From: Nanobdellota archaeon
GTDB taxonomy: Archaea; Nanobdellota; Nanobdellia; Woesearchaeales; JAHWHD01
NCBI GenBank assembly: GCA_034722435.1
Contig: JAYENX010000010.1
Span: forward strand, 1-46,830
DNA: 46,830 nucleotides
Direction: 5' to 3'
Under the pieces are notes generated by a model. The model was not told the DNA's origin, made no database searches, and saw only the letters and a list, made by a program, of their open reading frames with translations. Made by a program: the position numbers and the translations under genes. Positions 7,785-17,249 of the stretch are shown piece after piece. Positions within the stretch are counted from its first letter, which is position 1. Every line of letters starts with the position of its first letter.

Positions 7785-8662
7785 TGAAATCTATAGTTAT
7801 CTTATCAGGAAAAGGTGGAGTGGGTAAGAGTAGTATATCTGCATCTTTAGCAGTATCCTTTTCAAAGGATTATAAAATTGTGTGTGCTGATTGTGATGTC
7901 GATGCTTCAAATTTAGCACTTTTATTTTCATTGTCGATTGATAAATATATGGAATGGAAACCATTATCTACAAATCAAATTGCTGTAGTTGATAAGGATA
8001 AATGTATCAGTTGCGGTAAGTGTATTGAAACTTGTTATTTCCGTGCTTTAGAGTTTAAAGGGAAGTTTCCTGGAGTTAATGAATTTGGTTGTGAAGGTTG
8101 TGGTGCTTGTGAACTTATTTGTCCGGTTGATGCTATAACATTGCAAGATATTGATAATGCACATATTGGATACGCGAAAACTGATTACGGTTTTTCTATT
8201 GCTTCTGCTCAACTTTCGCCAGGGAATTCGGGATCAGGGAAGGTTGTTTCTGAGGTTAGAAAGAAAGCTAATGAGATATCTGAAAATGTGGAATATATGA
8301 TTATTGATTCTGCTGCAGGTATTGGATGTCCTGTCATTGCTTCAGTTACTGGTACTGATTATGCGATTATTGTTACAGAACCAACACCTTCGGGGTTTTC
8401 GGATATGAAAAGAGCTTTAGATGTTGTGAATCATTTCAGAATTAAATGTGGAATTATCCTAAATAAATTTGACTTAAATCTAGATTTTACTAAGAAGATT
8501 GAATCTTTTGCAGAAGAAAAGGGTATGACGATAATTGAAAAGATTCCTTTTGATAAAATGTTTGTTAAAGCAATGACTGAGATGGTTCCAATAATTGATT
8601 TTGATAATAAGTATAAGAAAATGTTTGATGGGATGAAAAATAAAGTAATTGAAGAACTTTGA
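7784..8662 (+). CDS. MinD-superfamily P-loop ATPase with inserted ferredoxin (COG1149-like), copy 2
   Basis: SGKGGVGKSS, DCDVDASN, CISCGKCIETC, CEGCGACELICP, DSAAGIGCP, VTEPTPSG. ATG 7784 overlaps the tsaA stop. Confidence 0.9.
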   Translation: MKSIVILSGKGGVGKSSISASLAVSFSKDYKIVCADCDVDASNLALLFSLSIDKYMEWKPLSTNQIAVVDKDKCISCGKCIETCYFRALEFKGKFPGVNEFGCEGCGACELICPVDAITLQDIDNAHIGYAKTDYGFSIASAQLSPGNSGSGKVVSEVRKKANEISENVEYMIIDSAAGIGCPVIASVTGTDYAIIVTEPTPSGFSDMKRALDVVNHFRIKCGIILNKFDLNLDFTKKIESFAEEKGMTIIEKIPFDKMFVKAMTEMVPIIDFDNKYKKMFDGMKNKVIEEL

Positions 8663-8768
8663 GATAATATTTGCGCGAGATTATTTGATTGTTTTGAAAT
8701 TTTTGTATGTTGTCTTTCTTCTTAAAAAAGAATATCTTTATAACAAAAACAGATTTTTTATGTATATA

Positions 8769-9938
8769 ATGGGAGATTTTGCTAAATTAGGTTTGAAAAA
8801 AGAAATTTTAACTGTTTTAGCTAGATTGAAATTTAATGAATCTTTTGAAGTGCAAGAGAAAATAGTGCCTCTGGCATTGAAAGGTAAAAATATTGTGTTT
8901 ACATCTCGAACAGGTAGTGGGAAAACATTAGCGTATCTTTTAGGTTTTTTGGGTAAGATTAACAAAAAGCAAGGTATACAAATGATAGTTTTTGTGCCTA
9001 CGAGAGAACTTTGTATTCAAATTGGTAAAGAATTACAAAAAGTATGTTCACTTTTAGGGATTAATGTCGGGATGCTTTATGGGGGTAGAGATGTTCCTGG
9101 CGATTATAGGACTATAAGTAAAAAAAATCAAATTATAGTGGGAACTCCTGGAAGATTTCTTTTGCATGTGAACGAAAAAAAGATTAAAGTTGGAAATGTT
9201 AAATATTTAGTTTATGATGAATCTGATCAAATGTTGGATCAAGGATTTTATGAAGATTGTATTTATATCAAAGATAGGGTAAGTAGAGATGTACAAATTA
9301 TATTTTCGTCAGCAACCATGACTGATAGAGTTAAACGTTTTATTAAGAATGAGATTGTTGATTATGAATTGTTAAGGATTGGCGAGTTAATTCCTAAAAA
9401 TATTGTACAAGAAAAATTGTATTGTGAAAAAATCGAAAAAAATGAAATATTATTGAACCTATTTTCAAAACGTAAGTTTAAACGTGCAATGGTATTCTGT
9501 AATACGAAGTTAAAATCGTATAATATTTCTGAATTTTTACAAACAAATAAGTTTAGTTCTAAATCTTTGAATAGCGACTTTAAGCAAGCGGAAAGGTTGC
9601 AGCATCTTAATTTGTTTAAAGAAGGGAAGGTTCAAATTTTGGTTGCAACAGATGTTGCTGCTCGGGGGCTTCATATTGAAAAGGTTGATATAGTGGTGAA
9701 TTATGATGTTCCTACAAAGGAAGAATATTATGTGCATAGAATAGGTAGAACTGGACGAATCGATGAGCAAGGATATTCTTTAACATTTATATGTCCTGAA
9801 GATGTAGATCGTTTTTATAATATTGAGTTTACGTATAAATTGGATGTTGCAGAGATTGGTAAGAATTTGAAGATTGTTGTAGTTGATAAAAATAAAGAAA
9901 AAGGAGAAAAAGAAAATAAACTGAATGAATTAAAGTAA
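8769..9938 (+). CDS. DEAD-box RNA helicase (motif II reads DESD)
   Basis: Q motif, SRTGSGKT, PTREL, TPGR, DESD, SAT, ATDVAARG, HRIGRTGR. Start set at ATG 8769 (MGDFAKLGL). Confidence 0.9.
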   Translation: MGDFAKLGLKKEILTVLARLKFNESFEVQEKIVPLALKGKNIVFTSRTGSGKTLAYLLGFLGKINKKQGIQMIVFVPTRELCIQIGKELQKVCSLLGINVGMLYGGRDVPGDYRTISKKNQIIVGTPGRFLLHVNEKKIKVGNVKYLVYDESDQMLDQGFYEDCIYIKDRVSRDVQIIFSSATMTDRVKRFIKNEIVDYELLRIGELIPKNIVQEKLYCEKIEKNEILLNLFSKRKFKRAMVFCNTKLKSYNISEFLQTNKFSSKSLNSDFKQAERLQHLNLFKEGKVQILVATDVAARGLHIEKVDIVVNYDVPTKEEYYVHRIGRTGRIDEQGYSLTFICPEDVDRFYNIEFTYKLDVAEIGKNLKIVVVDKNKEKGEKENKLNELK

Positions 9939-10818: not shown

Positions 10819-11166
10819 ATGTATATGAAAAATGACCAATTTCACGAAATTCCTTTAAAATATGGAAAGACTGATGAAGTAAATTTTCCCGATATGCCTG
10901 GAAATAATTATTTTTGTGTTGGTTATAATCAAAAATATGGGCTTGTAGATGTTATGGAAGGCGATGGAAATCCAGTTTTTGAAGGAAGAATCAATATTGA
11001 AAATTTATTGTCGCAAAATCGGTTAGAAAAATCTCAAATTGTTGATTCGCGGGTTGAAGATTTTGTAATGAGCTCTTATCGTAATTTGAGAGAGGAACAA
11101 AAAAATCCTTATAAACGTGTTGACCCTTCAAAACCTGTTTTAGAGTGTTTGTCTTATAAAGGTTAA
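10819..11166 (+). CDS. Hypothetical protein (115 aa)
   Basis: ORF with upstream TTTAAATA box; no recognised motif. Confidence 0.55.
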   Translation: MYMKNDQFHEIPLKYGKTDEVNFPDMPGNNYFCVGYNQKYGLVDVMEGDGNPVFEGRINIENLLSQNRLEKSQIVDSRVEDFVMSSYRNLREEQKNPYKRVDPSKPVLECLSYKG

Positions 11167-11286: not shown

Positions 11287-12816
11287 ATGTTAGAAAAAAC
11301 AATGGAAGAATTCAAACAATTAGGATTATCGGATAATGTAATTGAAGTATTGAAAAAGAAAGGTTTTACTAAACCTACAACTATCCAAGTTAAAGTTATT
11401 CCTTTACTTTTGGAAGGAGAGAAGGATGTAGTTGGTCAATCTCAGACAGGTACTGGAAAAACTGCTAGTTTTGCACTTCCAATTCTTGAAAGAATAAAAG
11501 AACGTAGTAAAACAGTACAAGCTATTATTTTAACACCTACGAGAGAATTGGCTCTTCAAGTATCGCAAGAAATTGATTCATTAAAAGGGAATAAGAATAT
11601 TAGAATTCTTTCTGTTTATGGTGGTGCTTCAATTGGACCTCAAAGACAAAAACTTAAAGATGGTGTTGATATTGTTGTTGGAACTCCTGGACGGGTAATG
11701 GATTTACAACGAAGAAGATCTTTGAAACTTGATGATATTAAATATGCTGTTCTTGACGAAGCAGATGAAATGTTGAATATGGGTTTTGTTGAGGATATTG
11801 AAACTATTCTACAACATACGCCAAAAGATAAGAAAATGCTTTTATTTTCTGCAACTATGCCGAAACCGATTCTTAAGATTGCTAAAAGATATATGCATGA
11901 ATATGAATTTATTGAGGTTGAAAAAGCTCATGTTGTAACTAAAAATGTTGAGCAAATATATTATGATATTAATCCTAAGGATAGAGTTGAAGCTCTTAAA
12001 AGAATAATTGATAATAATCTTGATTTTCATGGAATTGTATTTTGTAAAACAAAAGCTGAAGTTGATGTTTTGTCTAATCAATTAGTAAAAATGAGTTATG
12101 GTGTGGCGGGACTTCACGGAGATATTGCTCAAAATCAAAGAGAGAAAATTCTTCAACAATTTAGAAAAAAACATGTTAATGTTCTTGTTGCTACCGATGT
12201 AGCTGCTAGAGGGATTGATGTTAATGATTTAACGCATGTTATTAATTATTCTTTGCCTCAAAGTCCACAGTTATATGTACATAGGATAGGACGTACAGGG
12301 AGAGCTGGTAAAAAAGGAATTGCTATTACATTTGTAATTCCGTCTGAGAAAAGAAAGTTAGTTTTTGTTGAAAGAACTAATAATTGTAAACTTATAAAAC
12401 AAAAACTTCCTTCAGCAAAAGATATTATCAAACATAAAGAAGCTCAAATTAAAACTATAATTAAGAATATTATTGATGCAACTGCTGGTAAAGCGTCGAA
12501 GTATAAATTAATGGCAAAAGAACTTTTAGAGGAACATGATTCGCATGAAGTCGTTGCGGCAGTTTTAAAATATAGTTTAAAACATGAATTGGATTTTAAT
12601 AGTTATAGAGATATTTCTGAACCTAAACCATCAAGACATTCTTCAAATTCGGGTAGAGGTGGTTTTAGAAGAGGTAGGTCAAGTCGGTCTGGTAAATCTC
12701 GTTCTAAAAATAGGTCTAATGGTGATAGGTCTGAGAAAAAAAGATATTCTGGTAGTAGGTCTAAAAAAGGTAATAATTCTAGAAAATCCGGTTCTAGACA
12801 TAAAAGAAGAAATTAG
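11287..12816 (+). CDS. DEAD-box RNA helicase (DeaD/CshA-like) with a basic Arg/Ser-rich tail
   Basis: QTGTGKT, PTRELA, TPGR, DEAD, SAT, HRIGRTGRAG; C-terminal RGGFRRGRSSRS tail. Confidence 0.95.
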   Translation: MLEKTMEEFKQLGLSDNVIEVLKKKGFTKPTTIQVKVIPLLLEGEKDVVGQSQTGTGKTASFALPILERIKERSKTVQAIILTPTRELALQVSQEIDSLKGNKNIRILSVYGGASIGPQRQKLKDGVDIVVGTPGRVMDLQRRRSLKLDDIKYAVLDEADEMLNMGFVEDIETILQHTPKDKKMLLFSATMPKPILKIAKRYMHEYEFIEVEKAHVVTKNVEQIYYDINPKDRVEALKRIIDNNLDFHGIVFCKTKAEVDVLSNQLVKMSYGVAGLHGDIAQNQREKILQQFRKKHVNVLVATDVAARGIDVNDLTHVINYSLPQSPQLYVHRIGRTGRAGKKGIAITFVIPSEKRKLVFVERTNNCKLIKQKLPSAKDIIKHKEAQIKTIIKNIIDATAGKASKYKLMAKELLEEHDSHEVVAAVLKYSLKHELDFNSYRDISEPKPSRHSSNSGRGGFRRGRSSRSGKSRSKNRSNGDRSEKKRYSGSRSKKGNNSRKSGSRHKRRN

Positions 12817-12847
12817 AGACTTTTTTTAAAATTAAATAAAAAATATT

Positions 12848-12979
12848 TTAATCGTCTTTTTGTGTTTTATCAATTCTTATTTGACATTCGTCACAATAAT
12901 ACTTCTTTGATTCGCTTTTAGGTACTACAAATCTTTTTTTACATAATCTGCAGTATTTTACTATTTTATAATCTACCAT
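12848..12979 (-). CDS. 43-aa zinc-ribbon microprotein (CxxC-x15-CxxC), not in the ORF track
   Basis: Hand translation MVDYKIVKYCRLCKKRFVVPKSESKKYYCDECQIRIDKTQKDD; ATG 1 nt after the stop of the upstream ORF. Confidence 0.75.
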   Translation of the reverse strand: MVDYKIVKYCRLCKKRFVVPKSESKKYYCDECQIRIDKTQKDD

Positions 12980-12980
12980 T

Positions 12981-13142
12981 TTATCTTCGTTTTTGACGTC
13001 TTTTATAATTTGATTCTGCTTCTAAATCTGTAGAACCGCATTTTTTACATACTAATATTGTAGTTGGTTTAGATTTTTTACCATGAGAATAGTTTCTGTG
13101 CGATTTAATGTCTGTTCCTTTACATTTTTTACATATCATCAT
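12981..13142 (-). CDS. 53-aa basic zinc-ribbon microprotein (CxxC-x24-CxxC), not in the ORF track
   Basis: Hand translation MMICKKCKGTDIKSHRNYSHGKKSKPTTILVCKKCGSTDLEAESNYKRRQKRR; ATG 2 nt after the stop of 13145-13366. Confidence 0.75.
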   Translation of the reverse strand: MMICKKCKGTDIKSHRNYSHGKKSKPTTILVCKKCGSTDLEAESNYKRRQKRR

Positions 13143-13144
13143 TT

Positions 13145-13366
13145 TTAGTACCTCGGAGTTTTATGTTTTGCGTAACAGTTTCTGCAGTAAACAGGTCTTC
13201 CTTCTTTTGGTTTGAAAGGAACTTCGCATTCTTTTCCGCAATCTGCACATTTAGTTTTATGCATATCTCTAGGAGCTGAGTTAAAGCTTCTTTGGTTAAA
13301 ACTGCTAAATTTACTGAAATCTACTGAGCCTGTATCACGTCTATTTTTTCGATTGTTTCTTTTCAT
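13145..13366 (-). CDS. CxxC-x17-CxxC domain protein
   Basis: MHKTKCADCGKECEVPFKPKEGRPVYCRNCY, the typical family signature. Confidence 0.85.
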   Translation of the reverse strand: MKRNNRKNRRDTGSVDFSKFSSFNQRSFNSAPRDMHKTKCADCGKECEVPFKPKEGRPVYCRNCYAKHKTPRY

Positions 13367-13631
13367 TTTAAAGGTTATTATCTGTAATCGGAATATTTTA
13401 ATTCGAATCGTATAAATTTAAATTATAAGCTAAGATAAAAATATTTTGATTATAATTAATAGAAAACAAACTTTCTTTATAAAGGCTTCTGTTTATTGAT
13501 GAATTCATAGTTTTTAATCTTAAATTATTTTTAATAAATTACAGTAAATGAATGTTTAATTATAAAAACTGTTAATTTTAATTGTTTTAAACGGTAAGAA
13601 CTTATTTAAGTAACTGGATTTTTAATTGTTT

Positions 13632-16004: not shown

Positions 16005-16547
16005 TTATTTCACGTTTACTTTTTTTAGATTTTTAATTAATTGTTCAACGCATTTGTTCATTTCTTCTTCGTTTTTTGTACCTGTACAAACTATTTTTCC
16101 GTTAGAGAATAAGAGGAAGCTTGCGGGATGTGGTTCTTTTATTTTGTATACTAAACCTGGAAATTGTTCTGGTTCGTATTCTGTATTGCTAAGTTTCATT
16201 GTAAGTTCGTTTAAGTTAAGATCAAGACCTAATGCACCCGATCCTACTAGGTTTTGAATTTTAAGTGTTGGTTTGATTGTTATCTTAACATTTAGTTTTT
16301 TGAGATTGTCAATAATCTTAAGAACTGATTTATTTGCATCTTCTATTGTTTTTGCACCTGCGCAAACAACTTTACCTGATGAAAATAATAAAGCTGATGA
16401 TTTTGGTTCTTTGATTCTCATTACTAGTCCTGGGAATTGTTCTGGGTTATACTCTACGTTAGATAATGTAGATGCGATTTTTTCTAATTGTAATTTATGT
16501 TCTAAATCTGTCGTAACTACTAAATTTACTACTTTTATATTTGCCAT
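16005..16547 (-). CDS. tbp: TATA-box-binding protein
   Basis: Two repeats YNPEQFPGLV / YEPEQFPGLV and LLFSSGKVVCAG / LLFSNGKIVCTG; start ATG 16547 after a GAGAGG RBS. Confidence 0.97.
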   Translation of the reverse strand: MANIKVVNLVVTTDLEHKLQLEKIASTLSNVEYNPEQFPGLVMRIKEPKSSALLFSSGKVVCAGAKTIEDANKSVLKIIDNLKKLNVKITIKPTLKIQNLVGSGALGLDLNLNELTMKLSNTEYEPEQFPGLVYKIKEPHPASFLLFSNGKIVCTGTKNEEEMNKCVEQLIKNLKKVNVK

Positions 16548-16695
16548 TTTAAAACCTCTCAAATATCCTGAATTTATGTATTTTAAATAAGAAACCACAG
16601 CTAACGATAAAGGTTTCGGTTTTTGTTTGATAATTATTAAAAAAAAAGAAGTGAGAAAAATAAAAAAAATATTGGATATCTTAAAGAATTATGAT

Positions 16696-16893
16696 TTATT
16701 CTTCTGATTTGCTAACATTAACCGCTTTTGGTCCTCTGTCGCCTTGTTCTACATCGAATGTAACTGAGTCGTTATCTCTTAAAATAACGCCGTCATTCAA
16801 TCCAGTTTGATGAACGAAATATTCATTTCCGTCTTCACCAGCGATGAAACCAAAACCTTTCATGTCATTGAAAAATTTTACTGTTCCTTTCAT
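16696..16893 (-). CDS. cspA: Cold-shock protein (Csp family)
   Basis: MKGTVKFFNDMKGFGFI (RNP1), YFVHQTG (RNP2), GPKAVNV; GGAGG RBS. Confidence 0.93.
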   Translation of the reverse strand: MKGTVKFFNDMKGFGFIAGEDGNEYFVHQTGLNDGVILRDNDSVTFDVEQGDRGPKAVNVSKSEE

Positions 16894-16897
16894 TGTT

Positions 16898-17023
16898 TTA
16901 CCTCCACACTATATTGTGAATTTGATTTTTATATTTATCACTATAGGATATTTTAGTATGTCTATCATTAATTATAGATATTTGACATAATTTACAATGT
17001 TTTGTTGTTTTGTGATTATCCAT
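16898..17023 (-). CDS. 41-aa upstream ORF of csp; degenerate paralogue of the 43-aa zinc-ribbon microprotein
   Basis: MDNHKTTKHCKLCQISIINDRHTKISYSDKYKNQIHNIVWR; its stop TAA falls between the csp GGAGG and ATG. Confidence 0.5.
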   Translation of the reverse strand: MDNHKTTKHCKLCQISIINDRHTKISYSDKYKNQIHNIVWR

Positions 17024-17249
17024 TTTATCATTAGCTAAACTTGATTTAAGCTAATAATTTATAGTGGCAGAAACAGATTAACATTTTTGGTTATTGGTTA
17101 AGTGCTCTGGTTATAAATAATAATAAGGTTAAATCTTTCTTTATTTATAAAGGTTGCTATTTATTCCTGTATAAATTGATTTATTTATGTTTAATATTTA
17201 CATTAATTACAATAATGGTTTATATATAACAATTAGTTTTATTAAATGT

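What the first reader, a model, noticed from the sequence alone, without database searches (positions are those of the whole stretch)
12848..13366. Unannotated operon of three tiny zinc-ribbon proteins convergent on the DEAD-box helicase
Seen: on the minus strand, a CxxC-x17-CxxC protein (73 aa), a 2-nt gap, a 53-aa CxxC-x24-CxxC protein with a KRRQKRR tail, a 1-nt gap, and a 43-aa CxxC-x15-CxxC protein. The last two are below the ORF-track cutoff. Three four-Cys ORFs in a row with 1-2 nt spacing are unlikely to be chance. All are basic. Inference: a microprotein set of nucleic-acid-binding zinc ribbons, possibly RNA chaperones or ribosome/RNAP accessory factors, acting with the adjacent helicase and Csp. 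This is the strongest candidate for an undescribed system in the window.
Basis: partly seen in the sequence, partly recalled or inferred. Interest (0 to 1): 0.75.

Follow-up and report, generated by a model that had tools for sequence, protein, structure and literature searches.

The report
Zinc-finger microprotein genes of a cold-shock cluster
Three tiny back-to-back genes for basic four-cysteine proteins are real. In related DPANN archaea the same genes sit directly in front of a cold-shock protein gene and next to RNA helicase genes, so they are probably undescribed helpers of RNA remodelling.

Summary
On the minus strand, ORFs of 73, 53 and 43 aa lie 2 and 1 nt apart, and each has two CxxC pairs. 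Shuffled windows give 0.12 such ORFs per 46.8 kb.

All three are real genes under purifying selection (median dN/dS 0.20-0.29).
- P1 is a member of the known CxxC-x17-CxxC domain family (PF23477/TIGR04272). Its Methanosarcina members bind zinc; their function is unknown.
- P2 is a predicted TFIIS/TFIIB-like zinc ribbon.
- P3 is a predicted treble-clef-like finger, not a ribbon.
- P2 and P3 match no Pfam, NCBIfam or PDB family. They are small families found almost only in one order, whose records are labelled Woesearchaeota/Nanoarchaeota.

The main result is context. In 68 species-level genomes, P3 is followed on the same strand by a cold-shock protein (Csp) gene in 52 loci. The median gap is 4 nt, and 15 loci overlap by 4 nt. 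P1-P2-P3-Csp occurs in 7 loci. A DEAD-box helicase gene abuts the array in 19.

This window holds a displaced copy. The trio lacks csp and converges on a helicase gene. csp lies 3.3 kb away, behind a decayed P3 copy.

The function is inferred, not shown: RNA-binding partners of Csp and the helicase. I found no paper describing this array. First-stage notes of this scan report a zinc-ribbon ORF before an archaeal csp in two other genomes.

The parts
13145..13366 (-). P1: gene for a 73-aa basic protein with a disordered basic N-terminus and a CxxC-x17-CxxC zinc domain (residues 33-69)
   Evidence: PF23477 zf_Tbcl_2 at E 3.2e-19 (68.8 bits, cut-off 27) and TIGR04272 at E 9.9e-20. The homologue alignment A8 has invariant C40, C43, C61 and C64. 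Median dN/dS is 0.20.
12981..13142 (-). P2: gene for a 53-aa basic zinc-ribbon protein with a conserved RNYSHGKKSK hairpin loop and an Arg/Lys tail
   Evidence: 30 protein clusters, all unnamed. Invariant residues are C4, C7, N17, H20, G21, S24, C32 and C35. The AF2 model (pLDDT 82.8) has four strands. The best fold matches are TFIIS/Rpb9/Brf1 ribbons, and they are weak. No Pfam family reaches its cut-off. Median dN/dS is 0.29.
12848..12979 (-). P3: gene for a 43-aa basic four-Cys finger. In related genomes this family is the cistron immediately upstream of csp
   Evidence: 86 clusters at 90% identity and 91 representatives at 50% identity, all small and unnamed. Invariant residues are Y4, C10, C13, C29 and C32. 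The AF2 model (pLDDT 87.5) has a beta-hairpin plus a helix. Median dN/dS is 0.23. Csp lies directly downstream in 52 of 68 loci.
13150..13154 (-). GAGGT Shine-Dalgarno-like site for P2, inside the last codons of P1
   Evidence: Read from the sequence. An SD-like 4-mer precedes P2 in 10 of 11 related loci.
13411..13416 (-). TTTATA, a candidate TATA box 45-50 nt upstream of the P1 start (inference only)
   Evidence: Read from the sequence. Not tested.
12838..12843 (-). Oligo-T run just after the P3 stop; candidate archaeal terminator (inference only)
   Evidence: Read from the sequence.
11287..12816 (+). DEAD-box RNA helicase (CshA/DeaD-like) with an Arg/Ser/Gly-rich tail, convergent on the trio
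   Evidence: PF00270 at E 8e-50 and PF00271 at E 6e-34; CshA model at 515 bits, below its cut-off of 646. Close orthologues lie near the P3-csp array in L038 and L043.
8649..9938 (+). Second DEAD-box helicase gene of the neighbourhood
   Evidence: PF00270 and PF00271. Orthologues lie within 2-3 kb of P3-csp in L078 and L084.
16696..16893 (-). csp, a cold-shock-domain protein of 65 aa (pI 4.6). It is the usual downstream partner of P3 but lies 3.3 kb away here
   Evidence: PF00313 at E 3e-19; ORF and sequence; pI.
16898..17023 (-). Decayed P3 paralogue: a 41-codon ORF ending 4 nt before the csp start. The first Cys pair is kept; the second pair is replaced by S and Y
Evidence: 24% identity to P3; C10 and C13 aligned.

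Best explanation
The three ORFs are one transcription unit encoding three small, basic, zinc-binding proteins. It is a displaced copy of a gene array conserved in one DPANN order, whose records are labelled Woesearchaeota/Nanoarchaeota: [DEAD-box helicase]-[P1]-[P2]-P3-Csp-[DEAD-box helicase]. In that array P3 is the cistron directly in front of csp, and the two are translationally coupled.

Most likely mechanism (inferred). The fingers bind RNA through their basic and aromatic surfaces. They act as accessory factors of the acidic single-strand RNA binder Csp and of the DEAD-box helicases in RNA melting and remodelling, for example in mRNA and rRNA handling and cold adaptation. This would resemble a split version of proteins that combine a cold-shock domain with zinc knuckles.

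Shown here: gene reality, conservation, purifying selection, cysteine patterns, predicted folds, tight linkage and coupling to csp, and enrichment of helicase genes.

Inferred: zinc binding by P2 and P3, RNA binding, and any physical or functional cooperation with Csp or the helicases.
For: - Gene reality. P1 matches PF23477/TIGR04272 at E of about 1e-19. P2 and P3 homologues keep all four Cys plus further invariant residues. Synonymous sites are near saturation (pS 0.75-0.83) while pN is 0.27-0.34; median dN/dS is 0.20, 0.29 and 0.23.
- Linkage to csp. Of 68 P3 loci in species-representative genomes, 52 have csp immediately downstream on the same strand. The median gap is 4 nt, and 15 loci overlap by 4 nt.
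- Array structure. P1-P2-P3-Csp occurs in 7 loci and P1-P3-Csp in 4. P2 always lies 0-10 nt before P3.
- Helicase linkage. A DEAD-box gene lies on the same strand within 700 nt in 19 of 68 loci. G000 has only 3 such genes in 1.3 Mb, so my rough estimate of chance adjacency is under 1%.
- No other neighbour. Unbiased ORF clustering found no other conserved neighbour.
- Charge. The fingers are basic in every family (median pI 9.3-10.6) and the linked Csp is acidic (median pI 4.8).
- Translation signals. csp carries a GGAGG-type SD in 50 of 51 loci, at or just after the 3' end of P3.
- Literature. CxxC-x17-CxxC small proteins of M. mazei are detected by mass spectrometry and bind zinc (PMC12704099). 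Woesearchaeotal csp transcripts are among the ten most expressed in situ (PMC11606122).
- From my own knowledge, not read here: B. subtilis CshA/CshB cooperate with CspB (Hunger 2006), and Lin28 and plant CSD proteins combine a cold-shock domain with zinc knuckles.
Against: - No experiment or expression data exist for these genes.
- Csp is far more widespread in the order (36 of 41 genomes) than P3 (about 19 of 41). csp genes of genomes without P3 have no four-Cys ORF upstream. Csp therefore works without these fingers.
- In this very window the trio is not next to csp.
- P2 occurs in few genomes (4 of 41).
- Fold matches are too weak (Z of 4 or less, Foldseek E above 0.5) to assign nucleic-acid binding.
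- Small four-Cys fingers can equally mediate protein-protein contacts.
Confidence: 0.5

Rival explanations
1. P3 acts mainly in cis. It would be an upstream cistron or leader ORF whose translation sets the level of csp translation through termination-reinitiation or by unfolding the csp ribosome-binding site. Its protein product would matter little.
For: Gaps are tiny and 15 loci overlap by 4 nt. The csp SD lies at the 3' end of P3 in 50 of 51 loci. P3 itself mostly lacks an SD (17 of 68), as a first cistron might. In this window the decayed P3 copy has lost two zinc ligands but is still an open 41-codon frame ending 4 nt before csp.
Against: The amino-acid sequence is strongly conserved (dN/dS 0.23; Y4, C10, C13, C29 and C32 invariant in 85 sequences). 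The model is confident and compact (pLDDT 87.5). An intact P3 is kept in this window and in about 14 other loci with no csp downstream. A cis role can coexist with a protein function.
Confidence: 0.15
2. The fingers are transcription-related: small TFIIB/TFIIS-type ribbons or treble clefs that bind RNA polymerase or promoter DNA and regulate the cold-shock operon, or transcription more generally.
For: 22 of 30 P2 members give sub-threshold hits to the TFIIB ribbon (PF08271, best E 4e-5). The top fold matches of P2 are TFIIS, Rpb9, Brf1 and RPB12 ribbons. The authors of PMC12704099 speculate on a transcription role for CxxC-x17-CxxC proteins. A shared TTTCTGA motif lies upstream of the first gene of the arrays (34 of 66 loci against 10.7% background). 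TBP lies between the trio and csp.
Against: No hit reaches a family cut-off. Fold scores are in the noise range (Z of 4 or less). The P2 hairpin loop is basic (RNYSHGKKSK), unlike the acidic catalytic loop of TFIIS. The only conserved neighbours are RNA chaperone and helicase genes, not transcription genes.
Confidence: 0.15
3. They are ribosome-associated microproteins, such as assembly factors or lineage-specific ribosomal proteins, that act with DEAD-box helicases in ribosome biogenesis.
For: They are small, basic four-Cys proteins, like many archaeal ribosomal proteins. Weak fold matches of P3 include ribosomal zinc proteins (Z 2.9-3.0). DeaD/SrmB-type helicases assist ribosome assembly (my own knowledge). 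Ribosomal protein genes lie within 2 kb in 6 loci.
Against: P3 is found in only about half of the order, and P2 in about a tenth. That is unlike core ribosomal proteins. The JGI labels 'L37AE/L43A' on two members are automatic names without Pfam support.
Confidence: 0.1
4. The ORFs are chance open frames in an AT-rich spacer, not genes.
For: Two of them are shorter than usual gene-calling limits, and most databases give them no name.
Against: Homologues with conserved Cys patterns occur in dozens of genomes, dN/dS is well below 1, P1 has a significant Pfam hit, and shuffles give 0.12 such ORFs per window.
Confidence: 0.01

Closest known systems
CxxC-x17-CxxC domain small proteins (Pfam PF23477 zf_Tbcl_2, NCBIfam TIGR04272), e.g. 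M. mazei A00184 and A01980
   Same: P1 matches the full 37-position model well above the cut-off. Both are small proteins with a single four-Cys site. The Methanosarcina members are detected by mass spectrometry and bind zinc (PMC12704099).
   Different: No function is known for the family. The paper says nothing about a link to csp or to DEAD-box genes. P3 aligns to this domain only weakly (hhalign P 9e-4, probability 23%, x15 instead of x17 spacing). No P3 member hits PF23477 at E of 0.01 or better.
E. coli cold-shock microproteins YmcF/YnfQ (Pfam PF23641 YmcF-like), encoded beside csp genes. Source: D'Lima et al. 2017, cited in PMC10317152 but not readable here, plus earlier scan notes.
   Same: They are four-cysteine microproteins encoded next to cold-shock protein genes, so they share the theme of a csp gene with a tiny zinc protein beside it.
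   Different: There is no detectable sequence relationship: PF23641 finds nothing in this genome at E of 10 or better and does not appear in the Pfam scans of P2 or P3. They are bacterial and prophage-borne, lie after csp rather than before it, and are 62 aa long.
Lin28 and plant cold-shock-domain proteins (CSD fused to CCHC zinc knuckles); from my own knowledge
   Same: They combine a cold-shock domain with small zinc fingers for RNA binding. This is the functional analogy behind the proposed mechanism.
   Different: Those are single polypeptides with CCHC knuckles. Here the parts are separate genes with four-Cys fingers of other folds. No P3-Csp fusion was found among proteins of 101-2000 aa.
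TFIIS domain III / Rpb9 / TFIIB-type zinc ribbons
   Same: P2 is predicted as a four-stranded ribbon with two zinc knuckles. Its best structural matches are 1tfi (TM 0.53, probability 0.91), 1pqv_S and 1qyp, and it gives sub-threshold PF08271 hits.
   Different: The scores are not significant (Foldseek E 0.6-0.7; Z of 3 or less). P2 has no flanking TFIIS or TFIIB domains, and its hairpin loop is basic rather than acidic.
Haloferax volcanii small zinc-finger proteins (HVO_2753, HVO_0758 and related NCBIfam models)
   Same: They are archaeal microproteins with C(P)xCG-type knuckles and experimentally shown zinc binding (as cited in PMC12704099).
   Different: The matches are only marginal (HVO_2901 model at E 0.025 for P2), and no csp-linked operon is known for them.

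Membership tests
PF23477 / TIGR04272 (CxxC-x17-CxxC domain), for P1 | Score above the curated cut-off over the full-length domain model | tested here: met
   68.8 bits against a cut-off of 27, covering positions 1-37 of 37. TIGR04272 gives 70 bits against a cut-off of 36.
PF23477 / TIGR04272 (CxxC-x17-CxxC domain), for P1 | Two CxxC pairs separated by 17 residues | tested here: met
   C40-x2-C43 and C61-x2-C64, which are invariant in 18 homologues.
PF23477 / TIGR04272 (CxxC-x17-CxxC domain), for P1 | Zinc binding | not testable with these tools
   Shown only for the M. mazei members by ICP-MS (PMC12704099).
PF23477, for P3 | Match to the family model | tested here: not met
   No P3 family member hits PF23477 at E of 0.01 or better. 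The spacing is x15. Profile-profile comparison gives only P 9e-4 and probability 23%.
PF08271 TFIIB zinc ribbon / PF24292 DUF7479, for P2 | Score above the curated cut-off | tested here: not met
   20.9 bits against 29, and 19.1 bits against 27. Of 30 members, 22 and 14 give sub-threshold hits.
TFIIS/Rpb9 C-terminal ribbon fold, for P2 | Structural superposition with a significant score | tested here: inconclusive
   Foldseek gives E 0.6-0.7, probability 0.87-0.91 and TM 0.5. VIA-align gives Z 2.4-3.0.
PF23641 YmcF-like cold-shock microproteins, for P2 and P3 | Match to the family model | tested here: not met
   No match in the whole genome at E of 10 or better, while the E. coli control matches over the cut-off. 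The family is absent from the Pfam scans.
Cold-shock / RNA-chaperone gene cluster (Csp plus DEAD-box helicase) | Conserved physical linkage of the finger genes with csp and DEAD-box genes | tested here: met
   P3 directly precedes csp in 52 of 68 loci, and a DEAD-box gene is adjacent in 19 of 68.
Cold-shock / RNA-chaperone gene cluster (Csp plus DEAD-box helicase) | Cold induction or RNA-chaperone activity of the finger proteins | not testable with these tools
   No expression or biochemical data are available.
Ribosomal zinc proteins (eL37, eL43, eS27 and similar), for P3 and P2 | Sequence match to ribosomal protein families, and universal presence in the lineage | tested here: not met
   There is no Pfam or NCBIfam ribosomal hit. 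P3 is in 71 of 401 genomes of the phylum and in about half of the order sample.

The most novel reading that the evidence does not exclude
P3, with P2 and P1 where present, is a dedicated zinc-finger partner of archaeal Csp. The pair would be made in fixed proportion from a coupled operon and would form a split 'cold-shock domain plus zinc finger' RNA-binding unit that loads or directs the neighbouring DEAD-box helicases. This would be a lineage-specific RNA-chaperone system of DPANN archaea, built from two protein families that have no name yet.
Probability: 0.3. Interest if true: 0.65.

Novelty: new variant of a known kind. Interest (0 to 1): 0.58.

Why it matters
Csp genes are patchy in archaea, yet they are among the most highly expressed genes of Woesearchaeota in nature (PMC11606122). 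How these reduced, host-dependent cells handle RNA folding is unknown.

A conserved, translationally coupled array of zinc-finger microprotein, Csp and DEAD-box helicase genes gives a concrete, testable set of candidate cofactors. It also adds two unnamed microprotein families (about 90 and 30 sequence clusters) that gene callers often miss.

It gives the CxxC-x17-CxxC family, whose function is unknown, its first functional context. It also offers an archaeal parallel to the E. coli csp-linked four-Cys cold-shock microproteins and to eukaryotic proteins that combine a cold-shock domain with zinc knuckles.

Tried and rejected
- Complex prediction of Csp with P3, using alignments A7 and A6: score 0.02, no verdict. 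It counts neither for nor against binding.
- Foldseek and VIA-align searches of the P2 and P3 models: only generic zinc-finger and zinc-ribbon matches (Z of 4 or less). The top VIA row for P2 was the anti-CRISPR AcrVIA2 (Z 4.0), which I treated as noise.
- PDB sequence searches with both profiles: nothing below E 0.03.
- ESM Atlas feature search for P3: only unnamed clusters at 0.91, which is within the noise range.
- Search for P3-Csp or other fusions among longer proteins: the five 'longer' hits are miscalled ORFs. They run in from an alternative frame of the upstream P1 gene or carry unrelated extensions.
- Idea that the long frames with weak PF23477 hits in G016 are helicase-finger fusions: they have no helicase domain.
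- Idea that every csp gene of the order has some four-Cys ORF upstream: false for the 20 csp loci of genomes without P3. One of these loci reaches its contig end right at csp, so its upstream side could not be read.
- Idea that P1, P2 and P3 are paralogues of one another: only P3 against P1 gives a weak signal.
- Literature searches for a described zinc-finger-Csp operon in archaea: none found in the held library.

Full report
**1. The observation**

The minus strand between 13366 and 12848 carries three ATG-started ORFs of 73, 53 and 43 codons, separated by 2 nt and 1 nt. Each has two CxxC pairs, with spacers of 17, 24 and 15 residues. All three products are basic (pI 10.0, 10.1 and 9.2).

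The P3 stop lies 31 nt from the stop of a convergent DEAD-box helicase gene (11287-12816). A GAGGT site inside the last P1 codons sits 8 nt before the P2 start.

In 50 shuffles of the window, small ORFs with a CxxC-x10-30-CxxC pattern occurred 0.12 times on average and never more than once. The real window has five, and three of them are these adjacent ORFs.

**2. The organism**

The window encodes TBP (16005-16598). It belongs to a 1.3-Mb, 60-contig genome with 32% G+C in the window. The public records of related genomes that carry the same genes are labelled Woesearchaeota, Nanoarchaeota or Nanobdellota. A few 'TPA' assemblies carry implausible labels such as Methanosarcinales or Planctomycetia.

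**3. What the three proteins are**

P1 is a clear member of the CxxC-x17-CxxC domain family:
- PF23477 'probable treble clef zinc finger' at E 3e-19, and TIGR04272 at E 1e-19, both full length and well above their cut-offs.
- The domain is found in 24 of 41 related genomes. The own genome has a second, longer copy.
- The only paper in the held library on this domain reports eight such small proteins in Methanosarcina mazei. They are detected by mass spectrometry, and two purified members bind zinc. Their function is unknown (PMC12704099).

P2 and P3 reach no Pfam, NCBIfam or PDB family, but both have clear homologues.
- P2 has 30 clusters among 5.8 billion proteins. C4, C7, N17, H20, G21, S24, C32 and C35 are invariant, and the C-terminal tail is Arg/Lys-rich.
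- P3 has 86 clusters at 90% identity, and 91 representatives among 1.84 billion at 50% identity. All are 32-131 aa except one weak hit to a 1,594-aa repeat protein (E 5.5e-6). Y4, C10, C13, C29 and C32 are invariant.
- Where a source names them, they are 'hypothetical protein', or they carry a stray automatic label.
- Codon-level comparison shows synonymous sites near saturation (pS 0.75-0.83) against pN 0.27-0.34. Median dN/dS is 0.20 for P1, 0.29 for P2 and 0.23 for P3, against 0.13 for Csp.

Structure predictions:
- AlphaFold2 with the family alignments gives confident small folds. P3 (pLDDT 87.5) has a beta-hairpin carrying the first CxxC and a helix that starts at the second CxxC, which is a treble-clef-like layout.
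- P2 (pLDDT 82.8) has four strands and two knuckles, a classical zinc ribbon with a long hairpin.
- Fold searches return only generic relatives at non-significant scores. For P2 these are TFIIS, Rpb9, Brf1 and RPB12 ribbons. For P3 they are PHD, ClpX-ZBD, YacG and DksA fingers and ribosomal zinc proteins.
- A profile-profile comparison aligns the whole P3 finger to the P1 domain with both Cys pairs in register and a 2-residue gap. The score is weak (P 9e-4, probability 23%), so a distant common origin is possible but not shown.

**4. The decisive evidence: genomic context**

A scan of one genome per prokaryotic species found 68 P3 loci. I compared the window's P1, P2, P3, Csp and both helicases with these loci by tblastn and then called the genes.

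- In 52 of the 68 loci, a cold-shock-domain protein gene follows P3 on the same strand. Two of the other 16 are cut by a contig end right after P3.
- The median P3-csp gap is 4 nt. In 15 loci the stop and start overlap by 4 nt.
- csp has a GGAGG-type ribosome-binding site in 50 of 51 loci, at or just after the end of P3. P3 itself usually has none (17 of 68).
- The full order P1-P2-P3-Csp occurs in 7 loci, plus one locus cut after P3. P1-P3-Csp occurs in 4 and P2-P3-Csp in 1.
- P2, when present in these loci, always sits 0-10 nt before P3. P1 sits 0-11 nt before P2.
- A DEAD-box helicase gene lies on the same strand within 700 nt in 19 loci: 11 after csp and 8 before the fingers. In four more it lies within 3 kb on the other strand.
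- The own genome has only three DEAD-box genes in 1.3 Mb. My rough estimate of chance adjacency is therefore under 1%. The loci are related, so this is not a formal test.
- Unbiased clustering of all ORFs within 3 kb found no other conserved neighbour. The remaining clusters are antisense shadows of these genes, plus ribosomal protein genes in 6 loci.
- In one genome (G032) a P2 homologue, not P3, sits directly before csp.

**5. Distribution**

- P3 is single-copy. It was found in 71 of 401 high-quality genomes sampled across the phylum: 68 in the same order, 3 elsewhere in the same class, and none outside the class.
- In the 41-genome sample of relatives, P3 is in about 19 genomes, P2 in 4 and PF23477 in 24. 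Csp is in 36.
- The csp genes of genomes without P3 show no four-Cys ORF upstream.
- The fingers are therefore an accessory layer on a nearly universal Csp, not an obligatory part of it.

**6. This window**

The local arrangement is atypical. The trio has no csp after it and instead converges on a helicase gene. A csp gene lies 3.3 kb away on the same strand (16893-16696). Immediately before it is a 41-codon ORF (17023-16898) that aligns with P3. It keeps the first Cys pair but has S and Y in place of the second pair.

The simplest reading is a duplication or rearrangement of an ancestral P1-P2-P3-csp array. The intact P3 stayed with P1 and P2, and the copy next to csp decayed as a protein but remained an open frame.

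Both csp genes and all three DEAD-box genes of the genome lie in just two neighbourhoods: this window, and contig 56.

**7. How it most likely works**

Shown:
- three real, co-oriented, tightly packed genes for small basic four-Cys proteins;
- a conserved and translationally coupled link of P3 to csp;
- recurrent linkage of the whole array to DEAD-box helicase genes.

Established background, from my own knowledge: Csp proteins are acidic single-strand RNA/DNA binders that act as RNA chaperones. DEAD-box helicases of the CshA/DeaD type cooperate with them in cold adaptation, mRNA turnover and ribosome assembly. Eukaryotic Lin28 and plant CSD proteins join a cold-shock domain to zinc knuckles.

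Inferred: P1-P3 bind zinc and RNA through their many Lys, Arg, Tyr and Phe residues. They work alongside Csp and the helicases, either by extending or targeting Csp's RNA-binding surface or by recruiting the helicase. I give this about 50%.

Rivals:
- P3 as a mainly cis-acting upstream cistron for csp: about 15% as the sole role, though it could coexist with a protein role.
- Transcription-related ribbons or autoregulators: about 15%.
- Ribosome-associated factors: about 10%.
- Chance ORFs: excluded.

**8. Comparison with what is known**

- P1 is a new member of a described family of unknown function.
- P2 and P3 are unnamed families.
- The nearest analogue is the pair of E. coli cold-shock microproteins YmcF/YnfQ (Pfam PF23641), which are four-Cys proteins encoded beside csp genes. 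That lead came from earlier notes of this scan. The primary paper (D'Lima 2017) is not held, so I could not read it. PF23641 finds nothing in this genome, so this is an analogy, not membership.
- I found no paper describing a zinc-finger-Csp-helicase array in archaea.
- Two unchecked first-stage notes of this scan report a zinc-ribbon ORF directly before an archaeal csp in other genomes. That agrees with the pattern found here but is not independent evidence.

**9. Use of unpublished genomes**

Four claims touch genomes flagged as unpublished:
- G001 (same genus) shows no match for P1, P2 or P3. Its csp loci (L103, L104) are among those examined.
- G002 (same family) has P3 followed by csp and a DEAD-box gene (L015). 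Its P3 is one row of alignments A1 and A3.
- G341 and G411 are counted in the 71 of 401 tally.
- None of the main conclusions depends on these genomes.

**10. Verdict**

The finding is real. Biochemical function remains untested. Interest is moderate to fairly high for people who work on archaeal small proteins and RNA chaperones. It is a new variant of known themes, not a new kind of system.

Noticed in passing
L032, L039, L050, L051, L059, L069, L087, L091, L046 and many P3-first loci, 10-40 nt upstream of the first gene; window about 17075-17085 (-) and 13385-13395 (-): A short motif, (T/A)TTTCTGA, lies upstream of whichever finger gene comes first in the array (P1, P2 or P3). TTCTG is present in 34 of 66 upstream 60-mers against 10.7% of background 60-mers. 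The window's csp operon has GTTTCTG about 57 nt before the decayed P3 start. The trio's upstream region has a diverged version (tattccgatta). It could be a shared promoter-proximal or 5'-UTR control element.
   Followed up: partly
window 16898-17023 (-): A decayed P3 paralogue lies directly before csp. It is still an open 41-codon frame ending 4 nt before the csp start, but its second Cys pair is replaced by S and Y. This suggests the upstream frame may matter for csp translation even without a functional finger.
   Followed up: partly
G000 contig 56: 18312-18770 (+) and 20723-21832 (+) (L102): The genome's second Csp has a long acidic Ala/Glu/Pro-rich repeat tail (152 aa in all). The third DEAD-box helicase gene lies 2 kb downstream of it. 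All three helicase genes and both csp genes therefore sit in two neighbourhoods.
   Followed up: partly
G000 contig 2 (L101:1228-1662, +): A second PF23477 protein (about 144 aa) has a long Arg/Ser/Gly-rich N-terminal region. It resembles the Arg/Ser/Gly-rich C-terminal tail of the helicase at window 11287-12816.
   Followed up: no
G032 contig 2: 53582-53725 (-) and 53378-53563 (-) (L002): A P2 homologue, not P3, sits about 15 nt before csp, while this genome's P3 is on another contig. The position before csp can therefore be taken by either finger family.
   Followed up: no
L031-L098, starts of P3 and csp: csp carries a GGAGG-type Shine-Dalgarno site in 50 of 51 loci, whereas P3 has one in only 17 of 68. 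Many P3-first loci have a CATTTAAAAA-like box about 25-35 nt before the ATG. This suggests a leaderless or very short-leader first cistron.
   Followed up: partly
L031, L035, L037, L043, L044 and others (record titles): Several third-party assemblies that carry this array typical of Woesearchaeota are labelled 'uncultured Methanosarcinales' or 'Planctomycetia'. These labels look unreliable.
   Followed up: no
window 10819-11166 (+): A 115-aa ORF between the Dus gene and the helicase gene has no Pfam family at E of 0.01 or better.
   Followed up: no
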